DNA of 32,000 nt from Idiomarina loihiensis L2TR (lineage in GTDB: Bacteria; Pseudomonadota; Gammaproteobacteria; Enterobacterales; Alteromonadaceae). Below the pieces are notes generated by a model, which saw only the letters and a list, made by a program, of their open reading frames with translations, made no database searches and had not been told where the DNA came from. The stretch covers positions 600,001-632,000 of the forward strand of contig NC_006512.1 in assembly GCF_000008465.1 (NCBI RefSeq), given 5' to 3'. Made by a program: the position numbers and the translations under genes. This document shows, in pieces, positions 6,431-32,000 of this stretch. The first letter of the stretch is position 1, and every line of letters begins with the position of its first letter.

Positions 6431-6486
6431 GTAGCCTGACATTTATGTCAGGTTCTGCACCCCACCTGACATAAATGTCAGGCTAC
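6431..6486. repeat. REPIN-like double palindrome, copy 1 (A-variant arm / A-variant arm)
   Basis: GTAGCCTGACATTTATGTCAGG, then a 12-nt spacer, then CCTGACATAAATGTCAGGCTAC. The two arms are reverse complements of each other, and each arm is itself a hairpin. Confidence 0.9.
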
Positions 6487-6493
6487 GTACATA

Positions 6494-6544
6494 TTGTAAC
6501 CGTATTCAGTTACAATTGATAATGTAACTATATTAAGTTACATT
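6494..6544. repeat. Left 51-bp inverted-repeat end of the two-gene cassette, made of two TGTAAC-N8-GTTACA palindromes
   Basis: Palindromes lie at 6494-6515 (TTGTAAC-cgtattca-GTTACAA) and 6521-6544 (AATGTAAC-tatattaa-GTTACATT). By hand alignment the whole 51 nt matches the reverse complement of 8003-8053 at 42/51 positions without gaps. An extra direct half-site, TTGATAGTGTAAC, is at 6544-6556. Confidence 0.8.
6516..6544 (+). promoter_or_regulatory. Possible sigma70 promoter of the cassette (TTGATA-17-TACATT) overlapped by a palindromic operator
   Basis: TTGATA is at 6516-6521 and TACATT at 6539-6544, with a 17-nt spacer, about 30 nt upstream of the ATG at 6573. The palindrome at 6521-6544 covers the spacer and the -10. 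This is a motif-level guess only. Confidence 0.3.
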
Positions 6545-6572
6545 TGATAGTGTAACTCTACGGGAAAACAAC

Positions 6573-7209: not shown

Positions 7210-8013
7210 ATGAATGACTATTTAATTTTGATGCTGTTACTGCTGGCGCACATAGCCGGTGATTTTTATTGTCAGCCGGATTATTTGGTTGGTAAAAAGT
7301 TATCATCAAGCTTCCGAAAGCGACTGTATGCTAACGCGATTCATGCTTTTATTCATGCTGGCTTGGTCGTGCTTCTGCTGTTGATACCGAAAATGTCTTG
7401 GGATGATTTATTGGTAACGACAGCTGTTATAGGCGTGACTCATTTTATTATCGATTCACTTAAGTCAGTAGCTGTTATCAAATGGGTTGATACTTGGGAA
7501 GAAAACGAACAGCCGGAGGAGGGTAGTAAACCAAGGAAAAGGAACCGTGCTTTTTATTGGTTCGTATTAGATCAACTGGCTCATTTGAGCGTTATAATTC
7601 TAATTTGGCTTGGGTTATTCCAACCTTTTTCCTCTATTGTCGAATATTTGTCAGTTGAATACCTTGTTGTTGTCATTTCTTATCTTCTTGTTTTGAAGCC
7701 GACCTCTGTATTAGTCAGTCTTATTTTAAAATTGTGCGAGACGCGAGAGAAAAAAGATAGAACTCTGGATGAGGCTGGTGCGGTCATTGGCTATATAGAA
7801 CGTTTGGTTATCCTTACTCTGATATTAGTCGGGCAATATACCGCAATTGGTTTTGTGATAGCTGCTAAGTCGGTATTGCGCTTCGGCGAGAATAAAGGGA
7901 AGGACACGAAGCTAAATGAATATGTGCTTCTGGGGACCTTGGCAAGTTTTGCTATAGTTTTATTTGTCGGCATTGCTACCACTGAAGTATTAGAAATACT
8001 TAAATGTAACTAA
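7210..8013 (+). CDS. Polytopic membrane protein, DUF3307 (SatC)-like
   Basis: 267-aa ORF that starts 1 nt after the upstream stop, suggesting translational coupling. It has about seven hydrophobic segments. His/Asp motifs sit within the helices (LLLAHIAGDFYCQ, IHAFIHAG, VTHFIIDS, LDQLAHL). A highly charged loop reads EENEQPEEGSKPRKRNR. Confidence 0.6.
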   Translation: MNDYLILMLLLLAHIAGDFYCQPDYLVGKKLSSSFRKRLYANAIHAFIHAGLVVLLLLIPKMSWDDLLVTTAVIGVTHFIIDSLKSVAVIKWVDTWEENEQPEEGSKPRKRNRAFYWFVLDQLAHLSVIILIWLGLFQPFSSIVEYLSVEYLVVVISYLLVLKPTSVLVSLILKLCETREKKDRTLDEAGAVIGYIERLVILTLILVGQYTAIGFVIAAKSVLRFGENKGKDTKLNEYVLLGTLASFAIVLFVGIATTEVLEILKCN

Positions 8014-8053
8014 ATATGGTTACGTTACCACTTGTAACCGAATACAGTTACTT
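8003..8053. repeat. Right 51-bp inverted-repeat end of the cassette
   Basis: Palindromes lie at 8003-8026 (AATGTAAC-taaatatg-GTTACGTT, overlapping the stop codon at 8011-8013) and 8032-8053 (TTGTAAC-cgaataca-GTTACTT). The reverse complement aligns 42/51 with 6494-6544. Confidence 0.8.
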
Positions 8054-8074: not shown

Positions 8075-8130
8075 GTAGCCTGACGTTTACGTCAGGTTCG
8101 ATATCCCACCTGACATAAATGTCAGGCTAC
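8075..8130. repeat. REPIN-like double palindrome, copy 2 (G-variant arm / A-variant arm)
   Basis: GTAGCCTGACGTTTACGTCAGG, then a 12-nt spacer, then CCTGACATAAATGTCAGGCTAC. The left arm (8075-8096) is identical to the reconstructed empty IS target. Confidence 0.9.
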
Positions 8131-8167: not shown

Positions 8168-8902
8168 ATGCTTAAAGAAGTAAAGGATATAGCCCACGAC
8201 GCTGGCGCTGCCATTATGGATATTTACCAAAGCAACGACTTTGATGTGCAGAAAAAGGCCGATGACAGTCCGCTGACCAAAGCAGATTTAGCGGCGCATA
8301 ACATCATTTGTGAGGGTTTGCGTGCGCTGGATATTCAGTACCCGGTTATTTCGGAAGAGTCGTCAGACATTAGTTGGGCGCAGCGCAAGCACTGGTGCCG
8401 CTATTGGCTGGTTGACCCGTTGGACGGCACCAAGGAATTTATTAAGCGAAATGACGAATTCACCGTGAACATTGCCCTGATAGAAAAGGGCGTGCCCATT
8501 TTAGGTGTGGTGTATGCTCCGGCGTTAGACGCCATGTATACCGGCGAGCGTGACCGCGGTGCGTTTTTAAACGACAAAGCGATTTCGGTTGCCACGCAGG
8601 AACCTGAAGCTTTGCGCGTTGTAGGCTCGCGCTCACACCCCTCACAGGAAACGACCGACTGGTTAGATGCTCAGGGCAAATCCTACGAGATGCTGGCGGT
8701 AGGCAGTTCACTGAAGTTTTGCCTGGTAGCCGAAGGTAAAGCCGACATTTATCCCCGCTTAAGCCCCACCAGCGAGTGGGACACCGCCGCAGCCCATGCG
8801 GTATTAAGTGCAGCAGGTGGGGACGTACTGACCCTTAACGGGGAACCGCTGCTGTACAACCAAAAAGCAGACTACCTCAACCCGCACTTTATTGCCCGGT
8901 GA
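8168..8902 (+). CDS. cysQ: 3'(2'),5'-bisphosphate nucleotidase
   Basis: 244-aa ORF with inositol-monophosphatase-family motifs (ISEES, WLVDPLDGTKEF, EWDTAAAHAV) and a length typical of CysQ. Confidence 0.85.
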   Translation: MLKEVKDIAHDAGAAIMDIYQSNDFDVQKKADDSPLTKADLAAHNIICEGLRALDIQYPVISEESSDISWAQRKHWCRYWLVDPLDGTKEFIKRNDEFTVNIALIEKGVPILGVVYAPALDAMYTGERDRGAFLNDKAISVATQEPEALRVVGSRSHPSQETTDWLDAQGKSYEMLAVGSSLKFCLVAEGKADIYPRLSPTSEWDTAAAHAVLSAAGGDVLTLNGEPLLYNQKADYLNPHFIAR

Positions 8903-8910
8903 TTGGTGTT

Positions 8911-8919
8911 GTAGCCTGA
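8911..8919. repeat. Left stub (GTAGCCTGA) of REPIN copy 3, which is split by the IS
   Basis: Joining 8911-8919 to 10302-10348 rebuilds a complete REPIN: GTAGCCTGA+CGTTTACGTCAGG, then a spacer, then CCTGACATGAATGTCAGGCTAC. Confidence 0.85.
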
Positions 8920-9004
8920 TGAGATGGTCCCCTCCCTCCTAAGCGGCATCGCAATGTGCCAATATAGAGGTTCAAGCTTCTATAGAACAGAGTGGAGAGG
9001 ACCA

Positions 9005-10036
9005 ATGGCTATTGTAAACAGAATTGCCCTGGATTTGGCAAAGGATTTTATTCAGGTTTTGGCGCTGGATGAAAATGAGCAGGAAGTTTTTAATAAAAAA
9101 CTGCGCAGCAATAAAGTGTTAGCGAAGCTGGCGACGCTGAGCCGTACGGATGACTGTGAAGTAGCGGTTGAGTCCTGCGGCATGAGTCATTACTGGCGCC
9201 GCGAATGTGAAAAGCTGGGTTATAAAACGGTGGCGTTGCCACCGCGTTTCGTCAAAGCGTACCTGCAGGGTGAGAAGAACGATGCGAATGACGCCCGGGC
9301 AATAGCCGAGGCGGCATCACGACCCAACCGTCAGACGGTCAGGCTGAAAAGCATTGAGCAGCAGGACTTAGCATTGATGGTCAATCAGCGGGAAGGCTTC
9401 GTGCAGACGAGAACGCAGTTCTCGAATAGGTTGCGGGGGCAACTGGCCGAATACGGCATTCTTTTACCGAAGCGAGTCGGTACGATATTACAGAGAGTAC
9501 CGGAGGTACTGGAAGACGACAGCAATGCGCTGACGCTTCAGTCACGGGACCTCATCAACCGGCTCTATCAGATGCTGCGAGCGGTGGATGAAGAAGTTAA
9601 AGCGCTGGATAAGCACTTAGCGACACAGGCCGAAAGGAATGAAGACAGTCAGCGGCTGATGACCCTGCCGGGTATCGGACCGATAACAGCGACCTCGCTG
9701 CTGGCACTGATAGGTGATGTGAGTGAATTTAAACGCGGCCGCAACCTGTCGGAATACCTGGGACTGGTACCACGGCAAAACAGCAGTGGCGGTAAAGACC
9801 GTTTAGGCGGTATTACCAAAAAAGGGAACACCAAACTCAGGACACTGCTGGTGCATGGCGCCCGCTCGGCACTGCGGGTGGCACAACAGCGCCACGACAG
9901 GCTGAGCCTCTGGGCACAGGATGTCGCTAAACGCAGAGGCAACAACGTTGCAGCGGTGGCACTGGCTAACAAGCACGCCCGGATAATCTGGGCGATGTTA
10001 AAGAATAAAGAAGATTACCGGATGACTGCTGCTTAA
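9005..10036 (+). CDS. IS110-family DEDD transposase/recombinase
   Basis: Starts MAIVNRIALDLAKDF.. (the N-terminal DEDD RuvC-like domain begins ..GIDLAK-like). The C-terminal Transposase_20-like region reads LMTLPGIGPITATSLLALIGDVSEFKRGRNLSEYLGLVPRQNSSGGKDRLGGITKKGN. A GGAGAGG RBS precedes the ATG at 9005. The track start at 8924 falls inside the terminal repeat. Confidence 0.9.
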   Translation: MAIVNRIALDLAKDFIQVLALDENEQEVFNKKLRSNKVLAKLATLSRTDDCEVAVESCGMSHYWRRECEKLGYKTVALPPRFVKAYLQGEKNDANDARAIAEAASRPNRQTVRLKSIEQQDLALMVNQREGFVQTRTQFSNRLRGQLAEYGILLPKRVGTILQRVPEVLEDDSNALTLQSRDLINRLYQMLRAVDEEVKALDKHLATQAERNEDSQRLMTLPGIGPITATSLLALIGDVSEFKRGRNLSEYLGLVPRQNSSGGKDRLGGITKKGNTKLRTLLVHGARSALRVAQQRHDRLSLWAQDVAKRRGNNVAAVALANKHARIIWAMLKNKEDYRMTAA

Positions 10037-10282
10037 CAGCATTCAGTAAAAGAGCACAGCGAAGGTTCATTCCTTCCGGGAGTTGCAAACGTCAACAGGA
10101 TGGTAAAATAGGGTAAACCGACGACAACTGAGACTGTTGAACGTCCGTACATAAAGTACGTTAGCCTGATAAGCCAGTTGTCGTGCGGAGTTCATCCAGG
10201 CCAGGTGCGCAAAGCGCGCACCATAAACAGGCCGTATATATGCGAGCGCCCCGACATTTACCACGAGTTGCCGTTGCAAAAC
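10037..10282 (+). ncRNA. Candidate bridge/seek RNA of IS copy A
   Basis: This non-coding stretch lies between the transposase stop and the right subterminal repeat. There is a 10-bp perfect stem (10121-10130/10175-10184) and an inner hairpin (10146-10150/10156-10160). Together they enclose an internal loop carrying AACGTC (10140-10145, antisense to target GACGTT) and TAGCCTGA (10162-10169, sense copy of the target left half). A second hairpin/loop (10192-10242) carries TCATC (antisense to core+left end, GATGA) and ATATATG (sense copy of right end+core). The exact RNA ends are unknown. Confidence 0.5.
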
Positions 10283-10301
10283 GGGAGGGGACCATATATG
10301 A
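10274..10301 (+). promoter_or_regulatory. Right-end half of a putative circle-junction promoter (TTGCAA-17-TA|TGAT)
   Basis: TTGCAA lies at 10274-10279 with a 17-nt spacer. Joining the right end, the TGA core and the left end would create TATGAT as a -10 directed toward the transposase gene. In the integrated state the hexamer is TATGAC. Confidence 0.35.
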
Positions 10302-10348
10302 CGTTTACGTCAGGAGCGATGCCCCACCTGACATGAATGTCAGGCTAC
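10299..10348. repeat. Right remainder of REPIN copy 3
   Basis: TGACGTTTACGTCAGG, then spacer agcgatgcccca, then CCTGACATGAATGTCAGGCTAC. Confidence 0.85.
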
Positions 10349-10434
10349 GTGCAGTTAAATGTGAGTAAATGTCGATTTTTCCAAATGGATGCTAGACTCT
10401 TTAGGTAAGAAAGCAGGCCACATAGGTGAAACAC

Positions 10435-15703: not shown

Positions 15704-15759
15704 GTAGCCTGACATTTATGTCAGGTGAGATACCGTTCCTGACGTAAACGTCAGGCTAC
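15704..15759. repeat. REPIN-like double palindrome, copy 4 (A-variant arm / G-variant arm)
   Basis: GTAGCCTGACATTTATGTCAGG, then spacer tgagataccgtt, then CCTGACGTAAACGTCAGGCTAC. The right arm (15738-15759) is identical to the empty IS target in the opposite orientation. Confidence 0.9.
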
Positions 15760-17377: not shown

Positions 17378-20300
17378 ATGTTTAACTCTACTTTCAAGCG
17401 TACAGCTGTTGCAGCTGCTATTGCTTTTGGCCTTAGTGGTGCGGCCATTGCACAAGATACTTCATCAGTCGTTCGCGGTAACGTTGTTACTGAGTCTGGC
17501 GAAGTTGCTGCAAACGCACGCGTTGAAATTATTCACGTTCCCACTGGAACTCGTTCAGTTGCGACGACAAACGAATCTGGTGCTTTTTCTAACTCAGGCT
17601 TACGTGTCGGTGGCCCTTACATCATCGTTATTGAAAGCAGCGAAGGCAAGAAAGTTTACGAAGACGTTTACCTGTCTTTAGGCGAACCTCTCCGTATTAA
17701 TGCTCAACTAGAGTCTAGTGATATGGAACGTTTGCAAGTGACCGGGACGGCAATTCTTGGCGGGGCGAACAGTGGTAGCAGCAGTTACTTTGGTGAAGAA
17801 GATATTGCTAACACTCCAACCTTTAATCGGGACTTAAAAGAAGTTGCGCGACTAAACCCTTACGTTAACTTGCTGTCAGGTTCTGAGTCTCCATTAAGTA
17901 TTGGTGGCGCGAACCCGCGTTATAACAGCATTGCAATTGACGGCGTTGGTGTGAATGACGATTTTGGTTTGAACGGCAATGGGTATCCAACCCAGCGCTC
18001 ACCTATATCTTTGGATGCGATAGAGCAAGTCTCTGTTGACGTGGCGCCATTTGATGCTGCCGAAGGTGGTTTTTCAGGTGGTCGCATTAATGCGGTAACT
18101 AAATCGGGAACGAACGAGTTTCATGGTTCACTAACATACGAGCGTATGAGCGATGCTTGGGCTGGTGACCCCGAGAATCCTGCCGGCGACGAAGTGCCAT
18201 TAGATTTCGAGCGCGATACATACAGTCTGGCATTAGGTGGTCCAATCGTAAAAGACAAAGTTTTCTTCTTTGTTAACTACGAGAAGTCAAAAGAGCCAGC
18301 TCAGATTGAGTTTGGCCCTGCCGGTGCCGGCGCCGCTAACGACAGTGACGTTACTCAGGAGCAATATCAGGAAGTAAGAGACATCGCACAAGGTGTCTAT
18401 GGTGTTGATATTGGTAATTGGAATACTTTAAAAGACACTACCAATGAAAACTTGTTGGTGAAGTTAGATTGGAACATTAACTATGATCATCGCTTAGCAT
18501 TTACCTTCAATAGAACAGAAGGTAATAATGTTCGCGGGCAATCAAATAACCCTGATTCATTGGCGTTATCGACCAACTGGTATGACTATCAGCAGAATAT
18601 GGATCTTTATCGTCTTTCATGGTTTTCTGACTGGAGTGCCGATCTTTCCAGTGAAATCTATGTTAGTTATAAATCTGTAGAGTCTATTTCGGGGCTTGAG
18701 ACTAAAGAGTTTGGTGATATATCTGTCGACATGGATTCCGAGGGCGAGATTAGCTTGTCGTTTGGTCCGGATTACAATCGTCATGCGAACAGTTTGGAAA
18801 CCGATAACCTTAAGATTGGCGCTCGTTTTGACTACCTGGTAGGCGATCATGAAATTGAGTTTGGCGGTGAGTACGACAAAACTGACGTATTCAATATCTT
18901 TGTGCGTAACTCACTTGGTTCGTGGAGTTTCTCTTCAATTGAAGACTTTGCCAACCGCGAGGCGAGCAGCTTTTACTATGAAAATGCCTATACAAATAAT
19001 GCGAGCGACGCAGCTGCTGATTTCTCTTTAGGTCAATTGAATTTATACGTGCAAGATAACTGGTACCTTAATGACTCTATGGAATTAGGTCTGGGGTTAC
19101 GTTACGAGCGATATAATACAAGTGATAAGCCAACATTAAACGAAAACTTTGTTGAGCGTTACGGTTACAGCAATCAGGAAAACCTTGATGGTTTGGATAT
19201 TTTCTTACCACGCGTTGACTTCAAATGGTTTGCGGCGGATGACCTTGTTGTCCGAGCAGGAGCCGGTCGTTTCTCAGGTGGTCGTCCTAATGTTTGGGTT
19301 TCTAACTCATTTTCGAATGATGGCTACACGCTGGTGCAGTTTGATCGTGGTGAAGTTCCGGCAAATGAATATCTGAACAATGTCGATATCACGGAAGTAC
19401 CAGAAGCGGTGCGTAATGCTATGTACGCCGGCGATGGCGACACCAATAGTATCGATCCAAATTATGAGATTCCATCGGACTGGATTGCACGCGTAGGTGT
19501 TGATTATCAGTTTGATATTCCAGGCCTTGGTAATAACTTTAATGCGACTGCGGAAGTTATGCGCAAGTGGATGACTGACAACAGCCAGTGGAAGGATATT
19601 TCACGTTGTGTTTCAGGCGAAACAGCTGCTGGCGTTAGTATATACGAACCATGTGATCCTGATGCGCCAATTGGCCATTATGATTTACAGTTAACGAATG
19701 AAGATAAAAATGGTAAAGCGTGGATTTATACTGCGTCACTATCCAAACAGTGGGATAACGGCTTTAATGCATATGCTGCTTATACGCATCAAAACATTGA
19801 TGAGGGTAACCCAGGCACATCTTCAACGGCAACATCTAACTATGAGTACAACATTGTTGTTGACCGTAATCAGCCGTTAATTGGTACTGCGGACTATGAG
19901 ACTGAACATACTCTGAAAATTGCGTTAGGTTATAGCCATGAGTTCTTCGATGGTTATGCGTCTAAGTTCAACTTATTCTTCCAGCGCCGTTCAGGAACTC
20001 CGTTTAGTCACACTATGAACCTATATTGTAATCGCAGAAATAACGACTGTGATGATGACTTTGGAGACCAGGATACGTTCGTAACGGGTAGTTACTTGCC
20101 TTACATCCCAGCGGGTGCAAACGACGCCAATATTAGCCCTGAGAGCACTATTAGTTACGATGACATGATGGCGATTTTTGAAAGTGTTGATTTAGCTCAG
20201 TACGCAGGTGGGTTTGCTCCGAAAGGTGCACGTCGTGCACCATGGGTCAATACCTTGGACTTCCAGTTCCAACAGGAGTTACCTGGTCTGATGGATGGTC

Positions 20301-20539
20301 ATAAAGGAGTATTCTACGTAAGTATTAATAACTTGTTGAACTTGATTGACAGTTCAAAGGGCAAGTCATTACGTATGAACTACACAAACAACTCAATTAT
20401 TGACTTCAATGGTTTAGATGATGAAGGCCGTTACATATACGGAGCTCCTTATGGTGGAGCGGACACGCGTAACTGGGATACTTTTGAAGCTGAAGAGTCG
20501 ACTTGGCGTATCAAAATGGGTGTTCAGTACAAGTTTTAA
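17378..20539 (+). CDS. TonB-dependent receptor with an N-terminal carboxypeptidase-regulatory-like domain (Oar-like), paralog 1
   Basis: 1053 aa with a signal peptide ending AIAQD. It has a CarboxypepD_reg-like segment (VRGNVV..GAFSNSGLRVGGPY), plug motifs (NPRYNSIAIDGVGVND) and the C-terminal ending MGVQYKF. Confidence 0.85.
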   Translation: MFNSTFKRTAVAAAIAFGLSGAAIAQDTSSVVRGNVVTESGEVAANARVEIIHVPTGTRSVATTNESGAFSNSGLRVGGPYIIVIESSEGKKVYEDVYLSLGEPLRINAQLESSDMERLQVTGTAILGGANSGSSSYFGEEDIANTPTFNRDLKEVARLNPYVNLLSGSESPLSIGGANPRYNSIAIDGVGVNDDFGLNGNGYPTQRSPISLDAIEQVSVDVAPFDAAEGGFSGGRINAVTKSGTNEFHGSLTYERMSDAWAGDPENPAGDEVPLDFERDTYSLALGGPIVKDKVFFFVNYEKSKEPAQIEFGPAGAGAANDSDVTQEQYQEVRDIAQGVYGVDIGNWNTLKDTTNENLLVKLDWNINYDHRLAFTFNRTEGNNVRGQSNNPDSLALSTNWYDYQQNMDLYRLSWFSDWSADLSSEIYVSYKSVESISGLETKEFGDISVDMDSEGEISLSFGPDYNRHANSLETDNLKIGARFDYLVGDHEIEFGGEYDKTDVFNIFVRNSLGSWSFSSIEDFANREASSFYYENAYTNNASDAAADFSLGQLNLYVQDNWYLNDSMELGLGLRYERYNTSDKPTLNENFVERYGYSNQENLDGLDIFLPRVDFKWFAADDLVVRAGAGRFSGGRPNVWVSNSFSNDGYTLVQFDRGEVPANEYLNNVDITEVPEAVRNAMYAGDGDTNSIDPNYEIPSDWIARVGVDYQFDIPGLGNNFNATAEVMRKWMTDNSQWKDISRCVSGETAAGVSIYEPCDPDAPIGHYDLQLTNEDKNGKAWIYTASLSKQWDNGFNAYAAYTHQNIDEGNPGTSSTATSNYEYNIVVDRNQPLIGTADYETEHTLKIALGYSHEFFDGYASKFNLFFQRRSGTPFSHTMNLYCNRRNNDCDDDFGDQDTFVTGSYLPYIPAGANDANISPESTISYDDMMAIFESVDLAQYAGGFAPKGARRAPWVNTLDFQFQQELPGLMDGHKGVFYVSINNLLNLIDSSKGKSLRMNYTNNSIIDFNGLDDEGRYIYGAPYGGADTRNWDTFEAEESTWRIKMGVQYKF

Positions 20540-20610: not shown

Positions 20611-20692
20611 TAACTAAAATTCACAAAAATGTCACAATTAAGCTATACCTTATTTGCAGTTAAAACCAAAACAAAACTGGGAAGAACACACT

Positions 20693-23600
20693 ATGTTTAA
20701 TGCCACTTTCAAGCGTACAGCCCTTGCCGCTGCTATTGCTATGGGTCTTAGCGGTGCAGCTATTGCTCAGGAAACCTCATCCAGCCTTCGTGGTGTTGTC
20801 ACCACTGAGTCCGGACAGGTTGTTTCAAATGCAACTATTCAGTTACGTGATGAGCGTACCGGAAGCACTAAAACTCTAACGACTAACCAACAAGGCACGT
20901 TCTCTTCACGTGGTTTACCGGTTGGCGGGCCATACACTATAGTAGCAGAAGGCCCGGGTGGTCGTACTCAGGTTGTTGAAGATGTCTACCTAACCCTGGG
21001 CGATTCACAAAATGTGAATATCTCGCTTGTATCGCAACAAGACATGGAACGTTTGAGTGTTACTGGTTCTATGACCAGCAACGCGCTGTATGGCAGCAAC
21101 AGTCCGGCTGCAAACTTTAATCTTCAGGATTTACAAAACGCTCCGGCGAGTGATCGTGATTTACGTGATGTTGTGTCGATTGACCCGCGTATCTATATTA
21201 ATGAAACGAACTCTGGTGCTATTCAGTGTGGTGGTGCAAACCCACGCTTTAACAGCCTGACCGTTGATGGCGTTCGTATGAATGACAACTTCGGCTTGAA
21301 CAGCAGCGGTTACCCAACTGAGCGCATGCCATTTTCTTATGACGCGATTGAGCAGGTTGCGGTAGAGTTTGCTCCGTTTGACGTTCAGTACGGTGGTTTC
21401 ACTGCCTGTAATATTAACGCTGTTACCAAAACTGGCGACAACGAAATGTTTGGTGGCGTGTTCTATGACTACACTAACGACTCTTTGCAAGGCGACGAGC
21501 TGGAAGGCGACAGCATTAATGTTGGTGATTTCAGCGAGAAACGTTATGGCTTTAACCTTGGTGGTGCGTTTATTGAAGACAAGTTATTCTTCTTCACTGC
21601 GTACGAAAAATTGGAAGGTTCTGACACTTTTGACCGAGGTCCTGAAGGCTCAGGTGCGGCGACAGAAGTTGTTGGCGTAAGCCAGGCTGACGTTGACCGT
21701 ATCGCTCAAATTGCACAGGATAAGTACGGTTATAATCCTGGTGGTTTCCCGGCAAGCCTGCCAGTTGAAGATGAAAAATTCCTTGCTAAGTTAGATTGGT
21801 ATATTAATGATGCACATCGCGCGTCATTAACTTACAACTATAACGACGGTTATTCTATTGCGGAGTCTGATGGTGATTCAGACGAGTTAGAGTTTTCTAA
21901 CCACTTCTACGAGCGTGGCGCTAAGTTCACTTCTTATGTTGGCGAGTTATACTCTGACTGGAGTGATAACTTCTCGACTGAAGCGCGTATTGGTTACTCT
22001 GAATTAGACGCTCGTGTTAACCCGTTGGGCGGCACCGATTTCGGTGAAGTGCAAATTGGCGTTAATGACGCAACGGTGTACTTAGGTGCGGATGACTCTC
22101 GTCACGCGAACAAGCTGAAGTACGACACGACCTTCTTCAAATTAAAAGGTACCTACTTAGCTGGTGATCACGTGATTTCAGCCGGTATTGAGCGCGAAGA
22201 ATATGACGTGTTTAACCTGTTTGTTCAGGAAGCACAGGGTGAGTATCGATTCAGTTCGATAGATGAATTTGATGCTGGCACGCCAATTGGAAGCCAAAAT
22301 GACGATGGTAGTTATGACGATACTGTTATCTATGAAAGTGCAGCTGGGACTAACAATCCGCAAGACGCTGCCGCTGAATTTGCTTATGCGGTAAATACTG
22401 CTTATGTTCAGGATGAGTACTACTACGCTCCAATGGACATTACGTTCACTTACGGCTTACGTTATGACTGGTACACCAGCGATGACATGCCGGTGAACAA
22501 CCCGTTGACCGAGGAGCTCTATGGTTTCTCTAACCAGCAAAACATGGATGGTCAAGATTTATTGCAGCCACGTTTTGGTTTCAACTGGTTTGTTAACCCA
22601 GACTTAGAAGTTCGTGGTGGTGTTGGCTTGTATTCTGGCGGAAACCCGAACGTATGGATTTCAAACAACTATTCAAACAACGGTGTGACTCAGTACGAAG
22701 CCGCATTTACAGGCGACTACTTTTTAGGCGGTAACACATTGTTTAATATTCCGCACACTGGCGAAGGTCGTCCAATTTATGATATCCCTCAAGAGCTGTA
22801 TGACGAGGTGGCTAACGCAAGTGGCCAGGGCCCGATCAATACTATGGACCCTAACTTCGAATTACCAAAAGAGTGGAAATATGCTTTAGGTGCAACTTAC
22901 ACCTTGCCGGATAACTACATTCTGATGGCTGACTTCTTATACACTGATAAGAAAGACGCTGCTGTTATCTACAACTTGGGTCTGGAGCAGGTTGGTACAG
23001 CACCAGACGGACGTCCAATTTTCGACGAGTTATCTACTGACGGACGTGACCAGGGTGACGACTTCATGTTGACCAACGTTGATGGCGACTCAGGTTCGCA
23101 GACGACTGTTTCACTGGCGCTGAGTAAAACTCATGACTTCGGTCTGGACTGGACTTTAGGCTACGCTTATAACGAAGCGGAAGACGTTAACCCAATGACC
23201 AGTTCAGTGTCGTTCTCTAACTACACTAACCTGGCAACGGCTAACGCTCAGAACCCTGGTGTTGCAACTTCTAACTATGAGATACCACATCGCTTTACCT
23301 TTAAAGCGAACTACACCAAAGAGTTCTTTGATGGTTACGACACTACTGTGACCTTGTTTGCGACTCGTAACAAAGGACGTCCGTTCTCTTATACAATGAG
23401 CGATGGTCCTTTTGGCGACATAGCTTATCAGGGACGTAGTTTGTTATACGTACCAACTGGTCTGGATGATCCAAACTTTGCCGTCGGTACAGACCGTGAC
23501 GGTAATCCATTTGAAACAGGCGCTTTCTTTGACTTTCTTGAAGAGTCTGGCTTGAGCAAATACGCGGGTGGCATAGCACCACGTAACGAGTTCAACAGCA

Positions 23601-23890
23601 AATGGTGGACTAAAGTGGACTTGCGTGTTGAGCAGGAATTACCAGGCTTTATGGACGGACACAAAGCTTCTGCATTCTTCGTTATTGAAAACTTAGGCAA
23701 TATGCTGAATGACGACTGGGGTGTGCTTTATGAAGCTCGATTCCCACGTGCTATCAATATTGCTGACGTTGAAATCAATGACGCGGGTCAGTACCAGTTC
23801 AATAATTTCCGCGACGTATCAAACGTTCAGTCACGCCAGGGTGAACCTTCACTATGGTCTGTGCGCATAGGCGTAGAATACAAGTTCTAA
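20693..23890 (+). CDS. TonB-dependent receptor (Oar-like), paralog 2
   Basis: 1065 aa from MFNATFKRTALAAAIAMGLSGAAIAQE. Its signal peptide and 5' leader are nearly identical to paralog 1, and it ends IGVEYKF. The start was moved to 20693 by alignment with paralog 1. Confidence 0.85.
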   Translation: MFNATFKRTALAAAIAMGLSGAAIAQETSSSLRGVVTTESGQVVSNATIQLRDERTGSTKTLTTNQQGTFSSRGLPVGGPYTIVAEGPGGRTQVVEDVYLTLGDSQNVNISLVSQQDMERLSVTGSMTSNALYGSNSPAANFNLQDLQNAPASDRDLRDVVSIDPRIYINETNSGAIQCGGANPRFNSLTVDGVRMNDNFGLNSSGYPTERMPFSYDAIEQVAVEFAPFDVQYGGFTACNINAVTKTGDNEMFGGVFYDYTNDSLQGDELEGDSINVGDFSEKRYGFNLGGAFIEDKLFFFTAYEKLEGSDTFDRGPEGSGAATEVVGVSQADVDRIAQIAQDKYGYNPGGFPASLPVEDEKFLAKLDWYINDAHRASLTYNYNDGYSIAESDGDSDELEFSNHFYERGAKFTSYVGELYSDWSDNFSTEARIGYSELDARVNPLGGTDFGEVQIGVNDATVYLGADDSRHANKLKYDTTFFKLKGTYLAGDHVISAGIEREEYDVFNLFVQEAQGEYRFSSIDEFDAGTPIGSQNDDGSYDDTVIYESAAGTNNPQDAAAEFAYAVNTAYVQDEYYYAPMDITFTYGLRYDWYTSDDMPVNNPLTEELYGFSNQQNMDGQDLLQPRFGFNWFVNPDLEVRGGVGLYSGGNPNVWISNNYSNNGVTQYEAAFTGDYFLGGNTLFNIPHTGEGRPIYDIPQELYDEVANASGQGPINTMDPNFELPKEWKYALGATYTLPDNYILMADFLYTDKKDAAVIYNLGLEQVGTAPDGRPIFDELSTDGRDQGDDFMLTNVDGDSGSQTTVSLALSKTHDFGLDWTLGYAYNEAEDVNPMTSSVSFSNYTNLATANAQNPGVATSNYEIPHRFTFKANYTKEFFDGYDTTVTLFATRNKGRPFSYTMSDGPFGDIAYQGRSLLYVPTGLDDPNFAVGTDRDGNPFETGAFFDFLEESGLSKYAGGIAPRNEFNSKWWTKVDLRVEQELPGFMDGHKASAFFVIENLGNMLNDDWGVLYEARFPRAINIADVEINDAGQYQFNNFRDVSNVQSRQGEPSLWSVRIGVEYKF

Positions 23891-28575: not shown

Positions 28576-28626
28576 GTAGCCTGGCATTTATGTCAGGTGA
28601 GATGCTGATTCCTGACGTAAACGTCA
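28576..28626. repeat. REPIN copy 5, left part (A-variant arm with one G substitution, spacer, and start of the G-variant arm up to TCA)
   Basis: GTAGCCTGGCATTTATGTCAGG, then spacer tgagatgctgatt, then CCTGACGTAAACGTCA. The arm is completed by GGCTAC at 30009-30014, on the far side of the IS. Confidence 0.85.
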
Positions 28627-28642
28627 TATATGGTCCCCTCCC

Positions 28643-28888
28643 GTTTTGCAACGGCAACTCGTGGTAAATGTCGGGGCGCTCGCATATATACGGCCTGTTT
28701 ATGGTGCGCGCTTTGCGCACCTGGCCTGGATGAACTCCGCACGACAACTGGCTTATCAGGCTAACGTACTTTATGTACGGACGTTCAACAGTCTCAGTTG
28801 TCGTCGGTTTACCCTATTTTACCATCCTGTTGACGTTTGCAACTCCCGGAAGGAATGAACCTTCGCTGTGCTCTTTTACTGAATGCTG
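28643..28888 (-). ncRNA. Candidate bridge/seek RNA of IS copy B
   Basis: This is the mirror image of 10037-10282. For example, TCAGGCTA at 28756-28763 is the reverse complement of TAGCCTGA. Confidence 0.5.
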
Positions 28889-29920
28889 TTAAGCAGCAGT
28901 CATCCGGTAATCTTCTTTATTCTTTAACATCGCCCAGATTATCCGGGCGTGCTTGTTAGCCAGTGCCACCGCTGCAACGTTGTTGCCTCTGCGTTTAGCG
29001 ACATCCTGTGCCCAGAGGCTCAGCCTGTCGTGGCGCTGTTGTGCCACCCGCAGTGCCGAGCGGGCGCCATGCACCAGCAGTGTCCTGAGTTTGGTGTTCC
29101 CTTTTTTGGTAATACCGCCTAAACGGTCTTTACCGCCACTGCTGTTTTGCCGTGGTACCAGTCCCAGGTATTCCGACAGGTTGCGGCCGCGTTTAAATTC
29201 ACTCACATCACCTATCAGTGCCAGCAGCGAGGTCGCTGTTATCGGTCCGATACCCGGCAGGGTCATCAGCCGCTGACTGTCTTCATTCCTTTCGGCCTGT
29301 GTCGCTAAGTGCTTATCCAGCGCTTTAACTTCTTCATCCACCGCTCGCAGCATCTGATAGAGCCGGTTGATGAGGTCCCGTGACTGAAGCGTCAGCGCAT
29401 TGCTGTCGTCTTCCAGTACCTCCGGTACTCTCTGTAATATCGTACCGACTCGCTTCGGTAAAAGAATGCCGTATTCGGCCAGTTGCCCCCGCAACCTATT
29501 CGAGAACTGCGTTCTCGTCTGCACGAAGCCTTCCCGCTGATTGACCATCAATGCTAAGTCCTGCTGCTCAATGCTTTTCAGCCTGACCGTCTGACGGTTG
29601 GGTCGTGATGCCGCCTCGGCTATTGCCCGGGCGTCATTCGCATCGTTCTTCTCACCCTGCAGGTACGCTTTGACGAAACGCGGTGGCAACGCCACCGTTT
29701 TATAACCCAGCTTTTCACATTCGCGGCGCCAGTAATGACTCATGCCGCAGGACTCAACCGCTACTTCACAGTCATCCGTACGGCTCAGCGTCGCCAGCTT
29801 CGCTAACACTTTATTGCTGCGCAGTTTTTTATTAAAAACTTCCTGCTCATTTTCATCCAGCGCCAAAACCTGAATAAAATCCTTTGCCAAATCCAGGGCA
29901 ATTCTGTTTACAATAGCCAT
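28889..29920 (-). CDS. IS110-family DEDD transposase/recombinase (copy B)
   Basis: The translation is identical to that of 9005-10036. Confidence 0.9.
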   Translation of the reverse strand: MAIVNRIALDLAKDFIQVLALDENEQEVFNKKLRSNKVLAKLATLSRTDDCEVAVESCGMSHYWRRECEKLGYKTVALPPRFVKAYLQGEKNDANDARAIAEAASRPNRQTVRLKSIEQQDLALMVNQREGFVQTRTQFSNRLRGQLAEYGILLPKRVGTILQRVPEVLEDDSNALTLQSRDLINRLYQMLRAVDEEVKALDKHLATQAERNEDSQRLMTLPGIGPITATSLLALIGDVSEFKRGRNLSEYLGLVPRQNSSGGKDRLGGITKKGNTKLRTLLVHGARSALRVAQQRHDRLSLWAQDVAKRRGNNVAAVALANKHARIIWAMLKNKEDYRMTAA

Positions 29921-30005
29921 TGGTCCTCTCCACTCTGTTCTATAGAAGCTTGAACCTCTATATTGGCACATTGCGATGCCGCTTAGGAGGGAGGGGACCA
30001 TCTCA

Positions 30006-30014
30006 TCAGGCTAC
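30006..30014. repeat. Right stub (TCAGGCTAC) of REPIN copy 5
   Basis: It completes the G-variant arm that the IS interrupts. Confidence 0.85.
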
Positions 30015-30040
30015 GAAAATGATAAAATTAGGTGTTTAAA

Positions 30041-32000
30041 ATGAAAAAGACAGTCGCCGCAGTGCTAATGGCTTTAGCTCCGGTATTTGCCTTAGCACAA
30101 AGCCTTGGCGACAAAATTGAACTATCCGTAAACAATCAGGTTATTGAAGCGACTCTGGCCGAGCCTTTGTCGTCGGGAAACAGTTATCGACTCACTTTTG
30201 AAGACCGCTATGGTGACACTCAGCATTTAGGTTTTTTGCATAAGCGTGGCGATAACCAGCTTATTTCCATTACGCATCCCGATGTGGGGGAAGTGGAAAT
30301 TCGTCGCGTAAACGGTAAAACCTATATTAATCAAAGAAACCGAACACCATCGGAGCCGTTAAAACCTAAGAGTCGGACAGAACCACAACAACTGGAAAAA
30401 CAGCTTCAGCTAGCTCCTGCTCCGCGTAAAGCGGCACTGACGAAAGCCAACAACGCTCAAATAACCTCCCTGGTGACTCAGTTCGATAACAACGTTGACG
30501 TGTTATTTCTGTACGACGAACGCTTATTGGGCTATGCCGATGATAAAGGTTACGATTTAGCTTTACGCATTGAAGCCGCCGTGAGCACAAGTAACTCTAT
30601 TTTTGAACGTTCACAATTACCCGTTGAAATGTCTGTGGCCGGTGTTAGTTTTTTCAATCCGGCATCTACCACTAGCTTTCCGACAGAAGACCCTAACGCG
30701 ATTATTGATGAACTGGTTGATGATCAGCGGGTTCGCCGGTTGATGGATCGCTATCAGGCCGATGTCGTCCATTTTATTGGCGCTGAAAACCCCACTGTTT
30801 GCGGCCTGGCTTTTGTTGCTACCGACTTTAATGTCAGTGACAACTTAGTGAATAGGGTGAGCGGCGCCGCGGGTGCAGGTTATACTGCATTATCCTGTAC
30901 GGGCACGGGAACTGTTGCGCACGAGGTTGGGCATAACTTCGGACTCAATCATGACCGCTATACCTTGGCCGACAATGCGAGTGGCGGTGGCGGTGATCAG
31001 AAGGATTACCATATTCCTTACGGCTTTATTGAAGATAGCGGACTTTTTTACACGACCATGTCATACGGCAGTGTCTGTCGGAGTGAATTTGGTAGCGGTG
31101 CCGTCTGTCGGGATGAAGCTGTCTACTCCAGCCCCGATATAGTAGATAGTGACTCTGGACTGCCAATGGGTAAAGCTGAGTCTCAAATTGATGCGGCTGA
31201 TGCCAGTACGGCGGCTCAGCGCAGCACGGTGGTTTGGGCTAATAATGCGTCACGCACTAATGTGAATGCTATGGCAGCCAGTCGCTCCGGCAATTCCGAG
31301 CTAACTTTAAGTTGGCCGGCGGTTGCTAATGCCGACCGCTATGCATTAGCCGGTGGGCGCTGCGAACAGTATGAGTCTGTAAGTCGTGAAGCTCTTTTGG
31401 ACTTGCAAAGCTTTAGTGTGAACTCGGTTGCTTTAGGCGGCATACCCAACGGCTCAACCGATATCTGCATTATCGCGATAGAGGAACTGACCAACGGTGC
31501 TGTTCGCTGGCGTTTTGTCAGCAATAGTAGCTTTAGTGGTAACTTCTCGAATACTAATGCAAATTACCTGTTACTGAATAGCAATGTGATGGGCTTGGTG
31601 GAAGCCGGAGATCAGGCCAGCTTTACTATTGAGCTATCGGATGCCGATACCAGTAACCAGTCATTACAGATGGCTGTTCCGACAACCGCTAGTGGCACTT
31701 CGGTGAGTCAGGACGTGGGTATAGCAACTGCCGGACAATGGTTTGACTGGGTTGTCAGCGGTAGTGGCAACACACGTATGATGACGGTAACTTTAAAGAC
31801 CGATATTGAAGAGATTGCGGCAAGCCTGGATAAAGACACTATTTTTAATCCGTTCCACTTGCGTTTAAAAGTGGTGAATACCGCTTTTAACGATTTTAAT
31901 ATTTCCAGCGGACTGTGGAATGACCCTTCTAGTATGGTTGGCTCGCGTCCGCAGGCTTTTTTAAGTTCGGGTGATACGGTTGGCGAACTGGAGGTGCTGG
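30041..32000 (+). CDS. Secreted zinc metalloprotease, reprolysin/metzincin-like (partial, runs off the window)
   Basis: The frame is open from ATG at 30041 to the window end. This ORF is not in the track because there is no stop. It has a signal peptide (MKKTVAAVLMALAPVFALAQS) and the zinc motif HEVGHNFGLNHD at about 30922-30957. Confidence 0.7.
   Translation, partial: MKKTVAAVLMALAPVFALAQSLGDKIELSVNNQVIEATLAEPLSSGNSYRLTFEDRYGDTQHLGFLHKRGDNQLISITHPDVGEVEIRRVNGKTYINQRNRTPSEPLKPKSRTEPQQLEKQLQLAPAPRKAALTKANNAQITSLVTQFDNNVDVLFLYDERLLGYADDKGYDLALRIEAAVSTSNSIFERSQLPVEMSVAGVSFFNPASTTSFPTEDPNAIIDELVDDQRVRRLMDRYQADVVHFIGAENPTVCGLAFVATDFNVSDNLVNRVSGAAGAGYTALSCTGTGTVAHEVGHNFGLNHDRYTLADNASGGGGDQKDYHIPYGFIEDSGLFYTTMSYGSVCRSEFGSGAVCRDEAVYSSPDIVDSDSGLPMGKAESQIDAADASTAAQRSTVVWANNASRTNVNAMAASRSGNSELTLSWPAVANADRYALAGGRCEQYESVSREALLDLQSFSVNSVALGGIPNGSTDICIIAIEELTNGAVRWRFVSNSSFSGNFSNTNANYLLLNSNVMGLVEAGDQASFTIELSDADTSNQSLQMAVPTTASGTSVSQDVGIATAGQWFDWVVSGSGNTRMMTVTLKTDIEEIAASLDKDTIFNPFHLRLKVVNTAFNDFNISSGLWNDPSSMVGSRPQAFLSSGDTVGELEVL

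What the first reader, a model, noticed from the sequence alone, without database searches (positions are those of the whole stretch)
8911..10348. Site- and orientation-specific IS insertion into one variant of a REPIN arm, seen twice
**The two insertions**
- Both IS copies interrupt the sequence GTAGCC-TGA-CGTTTACGTCAGG at the same TGA.
- They have the same polarity relative to the arm. Copy A is in the left arm of REPIN 3 on the + strand, and copy B is in the right arm of REPIN 5 on the - strand.
- Removing the IS body and one TGA restores a perfect REPIN in both cases.

**Preference for the G variant**
- Only the G-variant arms (GACGTTTAC) are hit. The A-variant arms (GACATTTAT) in the same REPINs are intact.
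- The discriminating G lies within the stretch complementary to the candidate guide AACGTC.
- Two empty sites identical to the target exist in this window, at 8075-8096 and 15738-15759.

**Established knowledge**
- IS1111-subgroup elements are known to target REP-like palindromes and transposon inverted repeats.
Basis: partly seen in the sequence, partly recalled or inferred. Interest (0 to 1): 0.65.

Follow-up and report, generated by a model that had tools for sequence, protein, structure and literature searches.

The report
RNA-guided IS inserted into REP repeats
Two identical copies of an IS1111-type insertion sequence sit at exactly the same base of a repeated palindrome because the element carries its own guide RNA matching that palindrome. 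This is a clean new example of a mechanism already known, and the supposed preference for the "G" variant of the palindrome is only partial.

Summary
A 1382-bp element (8917-10298 +; 28627-30008 -) is present twice, 100% identical. Each copy splits a GTAGCC|TG|ACGTTTACGTCAGG REP arm at the same base and in the same polarity. Other assemblies carry both sites empty, base-for-base as predicted.

The window is from Idiomarina loihiensis GSL 199 (CP005964.1).

The element is an IS1111-type member of the IS110 family:
- a DEDD transposase of 343 aa;
- 13-bp subterminal inverted repeats with 7-nt left and 3-nt right extensions;
- a 262-nt 3' non-coding region;
- no target duplication.

The non-coding region encodes a bridge/seekRNA-like fold:
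- The 3' guide UAGCCUG(A) (10162-10169) equals the left target half plus the core.
- The 5' guide UGAACGUC (10138-10145) is complementary to the right half, GACGTT(T/C)A.
- In about 22 independent insertions of relatives, the guides covary with the flanks and with the core (TG or CG).

G-only targeting is not supported:
- An identical copy in the same genome sits in an A-variant arm.
- Of 9 sites used by this exact guide, 4 are A-variant.
- The data fit tolerance of one mismatch or wobble.
- The crossover core is the dinucleotide TG, not TGA.

Verdict: a new member of a known kind, of modest interest.

The parts
8917..10298 (+). IS copy A (1382 bp, IS1111-type, boundaries by the IS1111 convention of a 7-nt left and 3-nt right extension and no target duplication)
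   Evidence: It is identical to copy B. Removing it reproduces the empty alleles L065 and L067.
28627..30008 (-). IS copy B, identical to copy A. Its tnp is 28889-29920, its 5' guide 28779-28788 and its 3' guide 28756-28763, all on the minus strand.
   Evidence: The empty allele is identical over 100 nt in 7 other assemblies.
8911..8916 (+). Left target half GTAGCC of the REPIN 3 left arm
   Evidence: This flank is invariant at every Idiomarina-type left junction. It equals the AGCC part of the 3' guide.
8917..8918 (+). Left copy of the TG crossover core. The right copy is at 10299-10300.
   Evidence: The core positions of both 3' guides covary between TG and CG, matching the junctions of relatives.
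8924..8936 (+). Left subterminal inverted repeat ATGGTCCCCTCCC, preceded by the 7-nt extension TGATGAG (8917-8923)
   Evidence: This matches the IS1111 definition in PMC11187229.
9005..10036 (+). Transposase gene (343 aa), a DEDD/RuvC-like domain plus a PF02371 domain, with the motif GLVPRQNSSG
   Evidence: Pfam PF01548 and PF02371. NCBIfam NF033542, IS110 family RNA-guided transposase, scored 326.8 bits against a cutoff of 140. Translation.
10037..10298 (+). 3' non-coding region encoding the predicted bridge/seekRNA
   Evidence: Folding z-score is -4.0. The region is conserved in relatives except for the guide stretch.
10118..10188 (+). Predicted target-binding stem-loop: basal stem 10118-10130 with 10175-10188, and inner hairpin 10147-10159
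   Evidence: Four basal-stem pairs show compensatory changes and 99% of cells are paired.
10137..10146 (+). 5' target guide (variable decamer TTGAACGTCC).
   Evidence: It is the only hypervariable non-coding stretch and it covaries with the right flank. In the permutation test none of 10,000 shuffles reached the observed pairing.
10162..10169 (+). 3' target guide UAGCCUGA, equal to top-strand TAGCC plus the TG core (and A). It pairs with the bottom strand.
   Evidence: It changes to UAGCU-UG and UAGGU-CG in relatives whose left junctions are GTAGCT|TG and GTAGGT|CG.
10189..10245 (+). Predicted donor-binding module: 5' guide UUCAUC(C) at 10191-10197 pairing with the left end G-ATGAG; hairpin 10199-10233; 3' guide AUAUAUG at 10236-10242, equal to the right end ATATA plus TG
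   Evidence: The core position of the 3' donor guide is CG in elements with a CG core. The helices are invariant, so the fold itself is not supported by covariation.
10274..10279 (+). -35-like TTGCAA. In a circular form it would lie 17 nt from TATGAT, which spans the junction.
   Evidence: Read from the sequence. No sigma-70-like promoter is found in the integrated copy. This is an inference.
10283..10295 (+). Right subterminal inverted repeat GGGAGGGGACCAT, followed by the 3-nt extension ATA (10296-10298)
10299..10348 (+). Remainder of REPIN 3: right target half TGACGTTTACGTCAGG, the spacer, and the intact A-variant arm 10327-10348 (GTAGCCTGACATTCATGTCAGG on the minus strand)
28576..28626 (.). 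Remainder of REPIN 5: an A-like arm 28576-28597, the spacer, and the right half of the interrupted G arm 28611-28626. The GTAGCC stub is at 30009-30014 on the minus strand.
8075..8130 (+). REPIN 2, empty. Its G-variant left arm 8075-8096 is identical to the target.
   Evidence: In assembly L071 the orthologous arm carries a different IS110-family element.
15704..15759 (.). REPIN 4, empty. Its G-variant arm 15738-15759 on the minus strand is identical to the target.
6431..6486 (.). REPIN 1, empty, with both arms A-variant (TGACATTTATG)

Best explanation
**What it is**
The element is an IS1111-type member of the IS110 family in Idiomarina loihiensis GSL 199. Its DEDD recombinase is most likely directed by a bridge/seekRNA transcribed from the element's own 262-nt 3' non-coding region.

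**How target and orientation are chosen**
- One internal loop carries two guides.
- The 3' guide UAGCC-UG reads the left half of the REP arm plus the TG core on the bottom strand.
- The 5' guide UGAACGU-C reads the second core base plus ACGTT(C/T)A on the top strand.
- Together they fix both the position (between GTAGCC and TG) and the orientation. On the other strand of the REP palindrome the left guide would face spacer sequence, and the right guide would meet two mismatches (ACGTAAA).

**Donor recognition and insertion**
- A second module matches the element's own joined ends (ATATA-TG-ATGAG).
- A circular copy would therefore recombine with the target at the shared TG.
- The result is a simple insertion with no duplication.

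**The G/A position**
- It faces guide base C10142.
- G gives a Watson-Crick pair and A gives a C·A mismatch.
- The neighbouring T/C position faces G10139, giving a wobble or a Watson-Crick pair.
- Arms with at most one such imperfection are used (G/TTT, G/TTC, A/TTC). The commonest arm, A/TTT, has two imperfections and is rarely used.
- That is why the A arms in this window are empty.

**Shown versus inferred**
- Shown: the anatomy, the insertion polymorphism and the guide-target covariation.
- Inferred: RNA expression, RNA binding by the recombinase, the circular intermediate, and the quantitative mismatch rule.
For: **Family assignment**
- Pfam PF01548 and PF02371, and NCBIfam 'IS110 family RNA-guided transposase' at 326.8 bits.
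- 13-bp subterminal repeats with 7/3-nt extensions, a 3' non-coding region of 262 nt against 88 nt on the 5' side, and the GL-P----SG motif.
- These are the features PMC11187229 uses to define the group.

**Real insertions without duplication**
- Empty alleles are identical to the predicted ones.

**Guides**
- TAGCCTGA and AACGTC flank a hairpin inside a stem.
- The stem has 4 compensatory pairs.
- The top-strand guide lies 5' of the bottom-strand guide and they overlap at the core, as reported for IS1111 seekRNAs.

**Covariation of the 5' guide with the right flank**
- GAAUGUC with GACATTC, and with GATGTTC through two wobbles.
- AUAGCGUC with GACGTTAT.
- AUAGCCUC with GAGGTTAT and GATGCTAT.
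- AGGGCGC with GCGCCTT.
- AAGGCGC with GTGCCTT.
- 142 of 154 positions pair, against a mean of 102 in 10,000 permutations, none of which reached the observed value.

**Covariation of the 3' guides**
- Both 3' guides track the left flank and core: GTAGCC|TG, GTAGCT|TG and GTAGGT|CG.

**Constant site and polarity**
- Seen in all junctions.
Against: - No RNA data are available. Rfam 15 gives no hit, at the gathering thresholds over the whole window or at E-values up to 10 over 8850-10400.
- The donor-binding fold rests on invariant helices, so it has no covariation support.
- No promoter-like site was found for the RNA in the integrated copy.
- The 'one imperfection tolerated' rule is post hoc. 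It pools a few hundred kb from several genomes around IS copies (9 occupied against 32 empty arms; p = 0.02).
- Sequences are phylogenetically related, so permutation p-values overstate independence.
- Copies now in A arms could have inserted with a different guide (for example AAUGUC, seen in L012 and L024) and later been homogenised by gene conversion.
Confidence: 0.87

Rival explanations
1. Strict G-variant targeting. The guide discriminates G from A absolutely, so only GACGTTTAC arms are substrates.
For: In the window, 2 of 4 G arms and 0 of 6 A arms are occupied. The G pairs with a guide C. The pooled odds ratio is 4.3 in favour of G.
Against: - A 100% identical copy in the same genome lies in TGACATTCATG (L008).
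- L006, L034 and L003 carry the same guide in A arms.
- Neither the window-only contrast nor the pooled contrast is significant (p = 0.13 and 0.10).
Confidence: 0.07
2. Protein-only recognition. The transposase recognises the REP hairpin or its sequence directly, and the complementarity in the non-coding region is coincidental or serves another role.
For: - The target is a structured palindrome, and both the A and G variants preserve the hairpin.
- A 2026 preprint reports that a target hairpin potentiates ISPpu10.
- No RNA evidence is available here.
Against: Elements with nearly identical ends, and non-coding regions that differ mainly in the guide positions, insert into different REP variants or families that match those guide changes. 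Among the Idiomarina relatives the transposases are also 95-100% identical. The family is annotated and experimentally established as RNA-guided.
Confidence: 0.04
3. The two copies are not independent insertions but a duplicated or recombined IS-plus-arm segment. The shared junctions would then say nothing about target choice.
For: - The identity extends 6 nt to the left and 17 nt to the right of the IS.
- IS-mediated rearrangement does occur in this lineage (L001/L005).
Against: - The extra identity is just the REP arm. Spacers, partner arms and flanking genes differ.
- Each site exists as an intact empty REPIN in other assemblies.
- About 20 further sites show the same junction.
Confidence: 0.02

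Closest known systems
ISPa11 (IS1111 family, Pseudomonas aeruginosa), characterised with its seekRNA by Siddiquee et al. 2024 (PMC11187229)
   Same: - IS1111-type architecture.
- Inserts at a fixed position and orientation in chromosomal REP sequences.
- An RNA derived from the 3' non-coding region has a top-strand match 5' of a bottom-strand match, and the two overlap at the insertion point.
   Different: - Different host genus, REP family and guide sequences.
- No direct sequence comparison was made here.
- The RNA of the Idiomarina element is predicted, not observed.
IS621 bridge RNA system (IS110 group; Durrant et al. 2024, PMC11208160; structures 8WT6 and others)
   Same: - A DEDD recombinase with a bispecific RNA carrying target and donor loops.
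- A dinucleotide core shared by donor and target.
- REP targets, and tolerance of some single mismatches.
   Different: - In IS621 the RNA is in the left end, the core is CT and the subterminal repeats are only 2-3 bp.
- Here the RNA is in the right end, the core is TG and the subterminal repeats are 13 bp.
- Protein similarity is limited to the C-terminal domain (E = 2.6e-9).
ISPpu9 and ISPpu10 of Pseudomonas putida KT2440 (PMC12288879; bioRxiv 10.64898/2026.03.19.712850)
   Same: - IS110-family elements that occupy REP sequences.
- They drive large rearrangements.
- The target hairpin contributes to efficiency.
   Different: - Different hosts and REPs.
- The Idiomarina data add natural guide variants that match REP sequence variants.
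ISEc11 and ISXne4, natural retargeting (PMC11187229)
   Same: Related elements keep the RNA stems but differ in the target-matching segments, and they sit in correspondingly different targets.
   Different: - Here the retargeting is finer. Single-base guide variants among 90-100% identical elements correspond to REP micro-variants.
- A more distant group has been retargeted to another REP family.

Membership tests
IS1111 subgroup of the IS110 family | DEDD/RuvC-like N-terminal domain (PF01548) plus C-terminal PF02371 domain | tested here: met
   (E = 8e-20 and 1.8e-26). NF033542 scored 326.8 bits against a cutoff of 140.
IS1111 subgroup of the IS110 family | Subterminal inverted repeats of about 11-13 bp with asymmetric terminal extensions (7 nt left, 3 nt right) | tested here: met
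   ATGGTCCCCTCCC at 8924-8936 and GGGAGGGGACCAT at 10283-10295, with extensions TGATGAG and ATA. The criterion is from PMC11187229.
IS1111 subgroup of the IS110 family | The longer non-coding region lies downstream of tnp | tested here: met
   The left end is 88 nt (8917-9004) and the right end is 262 nt (10037-10298).
IS1111 subgroup of the IS110 family | Transposase of 330-350 aa with a GL-P----S(t)G motif | tested here: met
   343 aa, with ...EYLGLVPRQNSSGG....
IS1111 subgroup of the IS110 family | Insertion without added bases, and precise correspondence to an uninterrupted target | tested here: met
   Empty alleles in other assemblies equal the window sequence minus the 1382 bp.
IS1111 subgroup of the IS110 family | The transposase clusters phylogenetically with IS1111-type transposases | not tested
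   Only indirect evidence is available. There are full-length hits at 42-47% identity to many plasmid-borne IS110-family genes, and only C-terminal similarity to IS621 and ISCro4. No tree with named ISfinder references was built.
IS1111 subgroup of the IS110 family | Circular double-stranded intermediate with a junction promoter | not testable with these tools
   Joining the ends would create TTGCAA-17 nt-TATGAT. This is only a reading of the sequence.
Bridge RNA / seekRNA | [quoted passage not shown] | tested here: met
   UGAACGUC (10138-10145) pairs with top-strand GACGTT(T/C)A. UAGCCUG(A) (10162-10169) equals top-strand TAGCCTG(A). They overlap at the core.
Bridge RNA / seekRNA | Guide positions covary with the target sequence among related elements (programmability) | tested here: met
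   In the permutation test none of 10,000 shuffles reached the observed pairing.
Bridge RNA / seekRNA | Conserved secondary structure presenting the guides in an internal loop | tested here: inconclusive
   The basal stem of the target loop has 4 compensatory pairs. The donor module and outer helices never vary. No Rfam model matches.
Bridge RNA / seekRNA | A donor-binding segment complementary to the element's joined ends | tested here: inconclusive
   UUCAUC and AUAUAUG match ATATA-TG-ATGAG. Covariation is seen only at the core (TG to CG), because the ends are invariant in all relatives found.
Bridge RNA / seekRNA | The RNA is expressed and bound by the recombinase | not testable with these tools
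   No transcript or binding data are available.
REPIN (REP doublet forming a hairpin) | Two REP sequences in inverted orientation separated by a short spacer, repeated in intergenic regions | tested here: met
   There are five such doublets in the window and more than 30 further arms in the related loci.
REPIN (REP doublet forming a hairpin) | Association with a RAYT (REP-associated tyrosine transposase) gene in the genome | not tested
   Seven window ORFs next to REPINs or IS copies were scanned against Pfam, and none matched a RAYT (Y1 transposase) family. The other window ORFs were not scanned and the rest of the genome was not available.

The most novel reading that the evidence does not exclude
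In Idiomarina, REP micro-variants and IS guides form a small natural specificity matrix:
- Point changes in one guide decamer (AACGUC, AAUGUC, AAACGUC, AUAGCGUC, AUAGCCUC) retune near-identical elements to different REP variants.
- G·U wobble and one tolerated mismatch set how many arms are usable.
- A second, IS110-type RNA-guided element uses the same REP with a core 4 nt away.

If this holds quantitatively genome-wide, it would be a natural data set on bridge-RNA mismatch rules. It would also bear on competition or co-evolution between two RNA-guided IS lineages and a REPIN population.
Probability: 0.3. Interest if true: 0.45.

Novelty: new member of a known kind. Interest (0 to 1): 0.28.

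Why it matters
- **A documented natural example.** The case comes with empty alleles, about 20 junctions and guide-target covariation. It shows RNA-guided IS1111-type insertion into REP sequences in a marine gammaproteobacterium.
- **Explanation of site and orientation.** The guides account for both without invoking anything new.
- **Correction of the G/A rule.** The apparent rule becomes graded mismatch tolerance.
- **Practical uses.**
  - Naming and annotating the element and its RNA.
  - Predicting which arms are at risk. 8075-8096, 15738-15759 and the A/TTC arm 10327-10348 are all plausible targets.
  - Providing natural guide variants for studies of bridge-recombinase specificity.
- **Limit.** It does not open a new kind of system.

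Tried and rejected
- **Rfam.** Scans at the gathering threshold and at permissive E-values found no family for the non-coding region. The only hits were chance snoRNA-like matches with E > 2.
- **A second guide candidate.** AAACGTCA at 10087-10094 matches the target over 8 nt. I rejected it as the guide. It is largely conserved across relatives whose right flanks differ; the single lineage-specific change there (GTCAAC to GTAAGC) has a compensatory partner in a long-range helix. The covarying stretch is 10137-10146.
- **TGA as the core or target duplication.** Rejected in favour of a TG core, because relatives share only 2 nt at both junctions and their guides switch from TG to CG.
- **Promoter scan.** A sigma-70 scan of the integrated copy found nothing.
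- **Genome scan.** The single genome-contig scan returned only draft Idiomarina genomes in which most copies sit at contig ends. A whole-genome occupancy table for GSL 199 could not be built. The look-up of encoding contigs shows at most 10 places, so the copy number in CP005964.1 is at least 4 but not known exactly.
- **Plasmid relative.** An annotated plasmid relative (H15/L054) was fetched to name the nearest known IS. It is unannotated and showed no clear subterminal repeats in the stretch examined, so it was dropped.
- **RAYT.** A Pfam scan of seven ORFs next to the REPINs and IS copies found none.
Full report
**1. What is in the sequence**

The stretch 8911-10348 is a REP doublet (REPIN) interrupted by a 1382-bp element at 8917-10298. 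A second copy lies on the minus strand at 28627-30008. The two are identical at every base. The identity extends only into the REP arm itself (inverted-repeat pair I1, 8911-10315 against 28610-30014, 1405 nt, 100%).

Both copies read GTAGCC | TGATGAG-ATGGTCCCCTCCC ... GGGAGGGGACCAT-ATA | TGACGTTTACGTCAGG.

The window holds five doublets of the same family:
- 6431-6486;
- 8075-8130;
- 8911..10348;
- 15704-15759;
- 28576..30014.

The arm motif has 17 matches, where dinucleotide shuffles give none. Two uninterrupted arms, 8075-8096 (+) and 15738-15759 (-), are identical to the reconstructed target.

**2. These are real, independent insertions**

The window is Idiomarina loihiensis GSL 199, CP005964.1, at about 600-632 kb.

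Looking up neighbouring window proteins in other assemblies recovered the unoccupied alleles:
- Copy B: seven assemblies carry the SLT-to-metalloprotease intergenic region without the IS. It is identical over 100 nt to the window with 28627-30008 removed.
- Copy A: two assemblies, L065 and L067, carry the intact REPIN, matching the prediction at the site.

Removal of exactly 1382 bp restores the natural sequence, so no target bases are duplicated. Spacers, partner arms and flanking genes differ between the two sites. A segmental duplication is therefore excluded.

**3. What the element is**

The ORF 9005-10036 (343 aa) has the DEDD/RuvC-like domain PF01548 and PF02371. It matches NCBIfam NF033542, 'IS110 family RNA-guided transposase', at 326.8 bits against a cutoff of 140.

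The element shows each feature that Siddiquee et al. (PMC11187229) use to separate the IS1111 type from the IS110 type:
- subterminal inverted repeats of 13 bp;
- a 7-nt left and a 3-nt right terminal extension;
- the long non-coding region downstream of tnp (262 nt against 88 nt);
- a transposase of 330-350 aa;
- the GL-P----SG motif (GLVPRQNSSG);
- insertion without added bases.

Similarity to the structurally solved IS621 and ISCro4 recombinases is confined to the C-terminal domain. I did not build a phylogeny with named ISfinder references.

**4. The guide RNA**

The 3' non-coding region folds better than shuffles (z = -4.0). Within it, a stem (10118-10130 with 10175-10188) encloses:
- a 5' single-stranded stretch, ...UUGAACGUCC (10137-10146);
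- a small hairpin (10147-10159);
- a 3' stretch, GUUAGCCUGAUAAG.

The two stretches match the target as follows:
- The 3' stretch contains TAGCCTGA (10162-10169). This is identical to the top strand of the left target half plus the core, so it is complementary to the bottom strand.
- The 5' stretch contains UGAACGUC (10138-10145). This is complementary to top-strand GACGTT(C/T)A.

The top-strand match lies 5' of the bottom-strand match and they overlap at the crossover. This is the arrangement reported for IS1111 seekRNAs.

A second module follows. UUCAUC(C) (10191-10197) and AUAUAUG (10236-10242) flank a hairpin (10199-10233), and they match the element's own joined ends, ATATA-TG-ATGAG.

Rfam 15 has no matching family.

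**5. Comparative test**

I collected relatives from three sources:
- exact-protein look-ups (L001-L010);
- a genome scan (I. abyssalis, I. zobellii and I. piscisalsi; elements 89-97% identical over the aligned stretches);
- a metagenome scan with the conserved right end (L024-L053).

The non-coding regions align at 87-90% column identity. The one hypervariable stretch is exactly the 5' guide decamer. It tracks the right flank:

| Guide decamer (DNA) | Right flank(s) found |
|---|---|
| TTGAACGTCC | TGACGTTTAC, TGACGTTCAC, TGACATTCAT, TGACATTTAT |
| GTGAATGTCC | TGACATTCAT (7 Watson-Crick pairs), TGATGTTCAC (two wobbles), TGACGTTTAC (wobbles) |
| GATAGCGTCA | TGACGTTAT |
| GATAGCCTCA | TGAGGTTAT, TGATGCTAT |

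A more distant group shares the IS ends but targets another REP family:

| Guide decamer (DNA) | Right flank |
|---|---|
| ACAGGGCGCT | TG-CGCCTT, TG-CGTCCT |
| ACAAGGCGCT | CG-TGCCTT |

Over 22 distinct sites, 142 of 154 non-core positions pair. The mean over 10,000 permutations is 102, and none reached the observed value. The sites are phylogenetically related, so this overstates independence.

The 3' guide changes in step with the left flank and core:

| 3' guide | Junctions and empty REPs |
|---|---|
| UAGCC-UG | GTAGCC\|TG |
| UAGCU-UG | GTAGCT\|TG |
| UAGGU-CG | GTAGGT\|CG |

The donor 3' guide switches from ATATA-TG to ATATA-CG in the CG-core elements. This identifies the crossover core as the dinucleotide TG. 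The third shared base, A, is coincidental in Idiomarina.

Structural support:
- The basal stem of the target loop has four pairs with compensatory changes and 99% pairing.
- The other helices never vary, so they say nothing either way.

**6. Orientation**

The REP arm is a near-palindrome (CCTGACGT-TT-ACGTCAGG), but the guides are not symmetric. On the opposite strand the left guide would face spacer sequence instead of GTAG. The right guide would meet ACGTAAA, which gives two mismatches. This accounts for the single polarity at every junction recovered.

**7. The G/A preference**

This part of the finding does not hold as stated.

A 100% identical copy in the same chromosome (L008, about 524 kb) lies in GTAGCC|TGACATTCATGTCAGG. 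L006, L034 and L003 carry the same guide in A-variant arms.

The nine independent sites used by the TTGAACGTCC guide, set against the empty arms in all Idiomarina-type DNA fetched:

| Arm variant | Occupied | Empty |
|---|---|---|
| G/TTT | 4 | 6 |
| G/TTC | 1 | 1 |
| A/TTC | 3 | 4-5 |
| A/TTT | 1 | 19 |

Statistics:
- G against A: odds ratio 4.3, p = 0.10.
- Arms with at most one imperfection against the guide, compared with the doubly imperfect A/TTT arm: p = 0.02.

That second grouping was chosen after seeing the data, and the sample is pooled and taken from the neighbourhoods of IS copies.

The picture fits the graded mismatch tolerance measured for IS621. The A arms in this window are empty mainly because five of the six are A/TTT or a further-diverged form of it. 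The sixth, 10327-10348, is A/TTC and should be a usable target.

One caveat remains. A-arm copies could have entered with an AAUGUC guide and later been homogenised.

**8. Comparison with known systems and novelty**

Prior knowledge:
- REP sequences as targets of IS110-family elements were catalogued in 2006 (PMC1525189).
- IS1111 members targeting REPs (ISPa11) and their seekRNAs were characterised in 2024 (PMC11187229).
- Bridge RNAs, the dinucleotide core and the right-end location in IS1111 elements are described in PMC11208160.
- Natural retargeting is known (ISEc11 and ISXne4).
- REP-hairpin potentiation has been reported for ISPpu10.

The Idiomarina element is therefore a new member of a known kind. 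Sources name its transposase only 'IS110 family transposase', and no paper in the library links Idiomarina with this IS. What it adds is a tidy natural series of single-base guide variants matched to REP micro-variants.

**9. Verdict**

Site and orientation specificity and the guide identity are right. G exclusivity and the TGA core are wrong.
- Interest is modest.

Noticed in passing
L071 about 1545-2810; L006 1633-2897 and 6220 to the locus end; L004 5122-6384; orthologous to window 8075-8096: A second, unrelated IS110-family element uses the same REP family.
- It has a 337-aa transposase and a long 5' non-coding region, so it is IS110-type.
- It inserts at GT|AG|CCTGACG, with core CT on the other strand, 4 nt from the TG core of the IS studied here.
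- In L071 it occupies the arm that is empty in the window at 8075-8096. In L006 the two elements abut.
- Its left end contains ACGUCAGGC and GUAG around a hairpin, in the reversed guide order expected for the IS110 type.
   Followed up: partly
L001/L005 compared with L007 and L010 (window copy B, 28627-30008): In assembly GCA_002732945.1 and a JGI metagenome, one IS copy joins the left flank of the L007 site (the Ldh side) to the right flank of the copy B site (the SLT/M20 side).
- This implies an inversion of about 130 kb between two inverted IS copies relative to GSL 199.
- Empty alleles show that the GSL 199 arrangement at copy B is the ancestral one.
   Followed up: partly
L026-L052 (metagenome contigs): A sister group of elements has the same terminal sequences but retargeted guides. 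It sits in a different REP family, GTAGCT|TG|CGCCTTTGGCGCA and GTAGGT|CG|TGCCTTTGGCACG, in an unidentified host.
   Followed up: partly
L033 3706-3782: A 77-nt remnant of the right end of a sister-group element lies next to a CG|TGCCTTTGGCACG REP, directly after a host gene. It lacks the transposase and both guide modules. It could be a decayed copy or a miniature derivative.
   Followed up: no
window 10274-10298 joined to 8917-8925: Joining the ends would create TTGCAA-17 nt-TATGAT across the junction, a good sigma-70 promoter facing the transposase gene. In the integrated state the -10 reads TATGAC, and no promoter-like site is found in the integrated copy.
   Followed up: partly
L014 9914-11299: In I. 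piscisalsi the left junction has TG but the right junction reads ATA|CGATGCTAT, while the element's donor guide specifies TG. L048 has TG at the same type of site. This could be a core mismatch fixed on one side or a later mutation.
   Followed up: no
window 30009-30043 and 8903-8916: The left end of copy B lies 32 nt upstream of the ATG (30041) of an 858-aa reprolysin-family metalloprotease gene, separating it from its upstream region. Copy A starts 14 nt after the stop codon of the inositol-monophosphatase-family gene (8168-8902).
   Followed up: no
window 6496-6545 and 8002-8051: A different palindromic motif (AATGTAAC-N8-GTTACATT-like) flanks the SatD/DUF3307 gene pair next to REPINs 1 and 2, as 50-nt arms 86% complementary (D9 and I6). 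It may be an operator or a terminator.
   Followed up: no
window 17378-20539 and 20654-23890: Two adjacent large ORFs (1053 and 1078 aa) are tandem paralogues, with direct repeats at a spacing of 3315-3327 nt and 72-73% identity (D2, D5, D12). They were not characterised.
   Followed up: no
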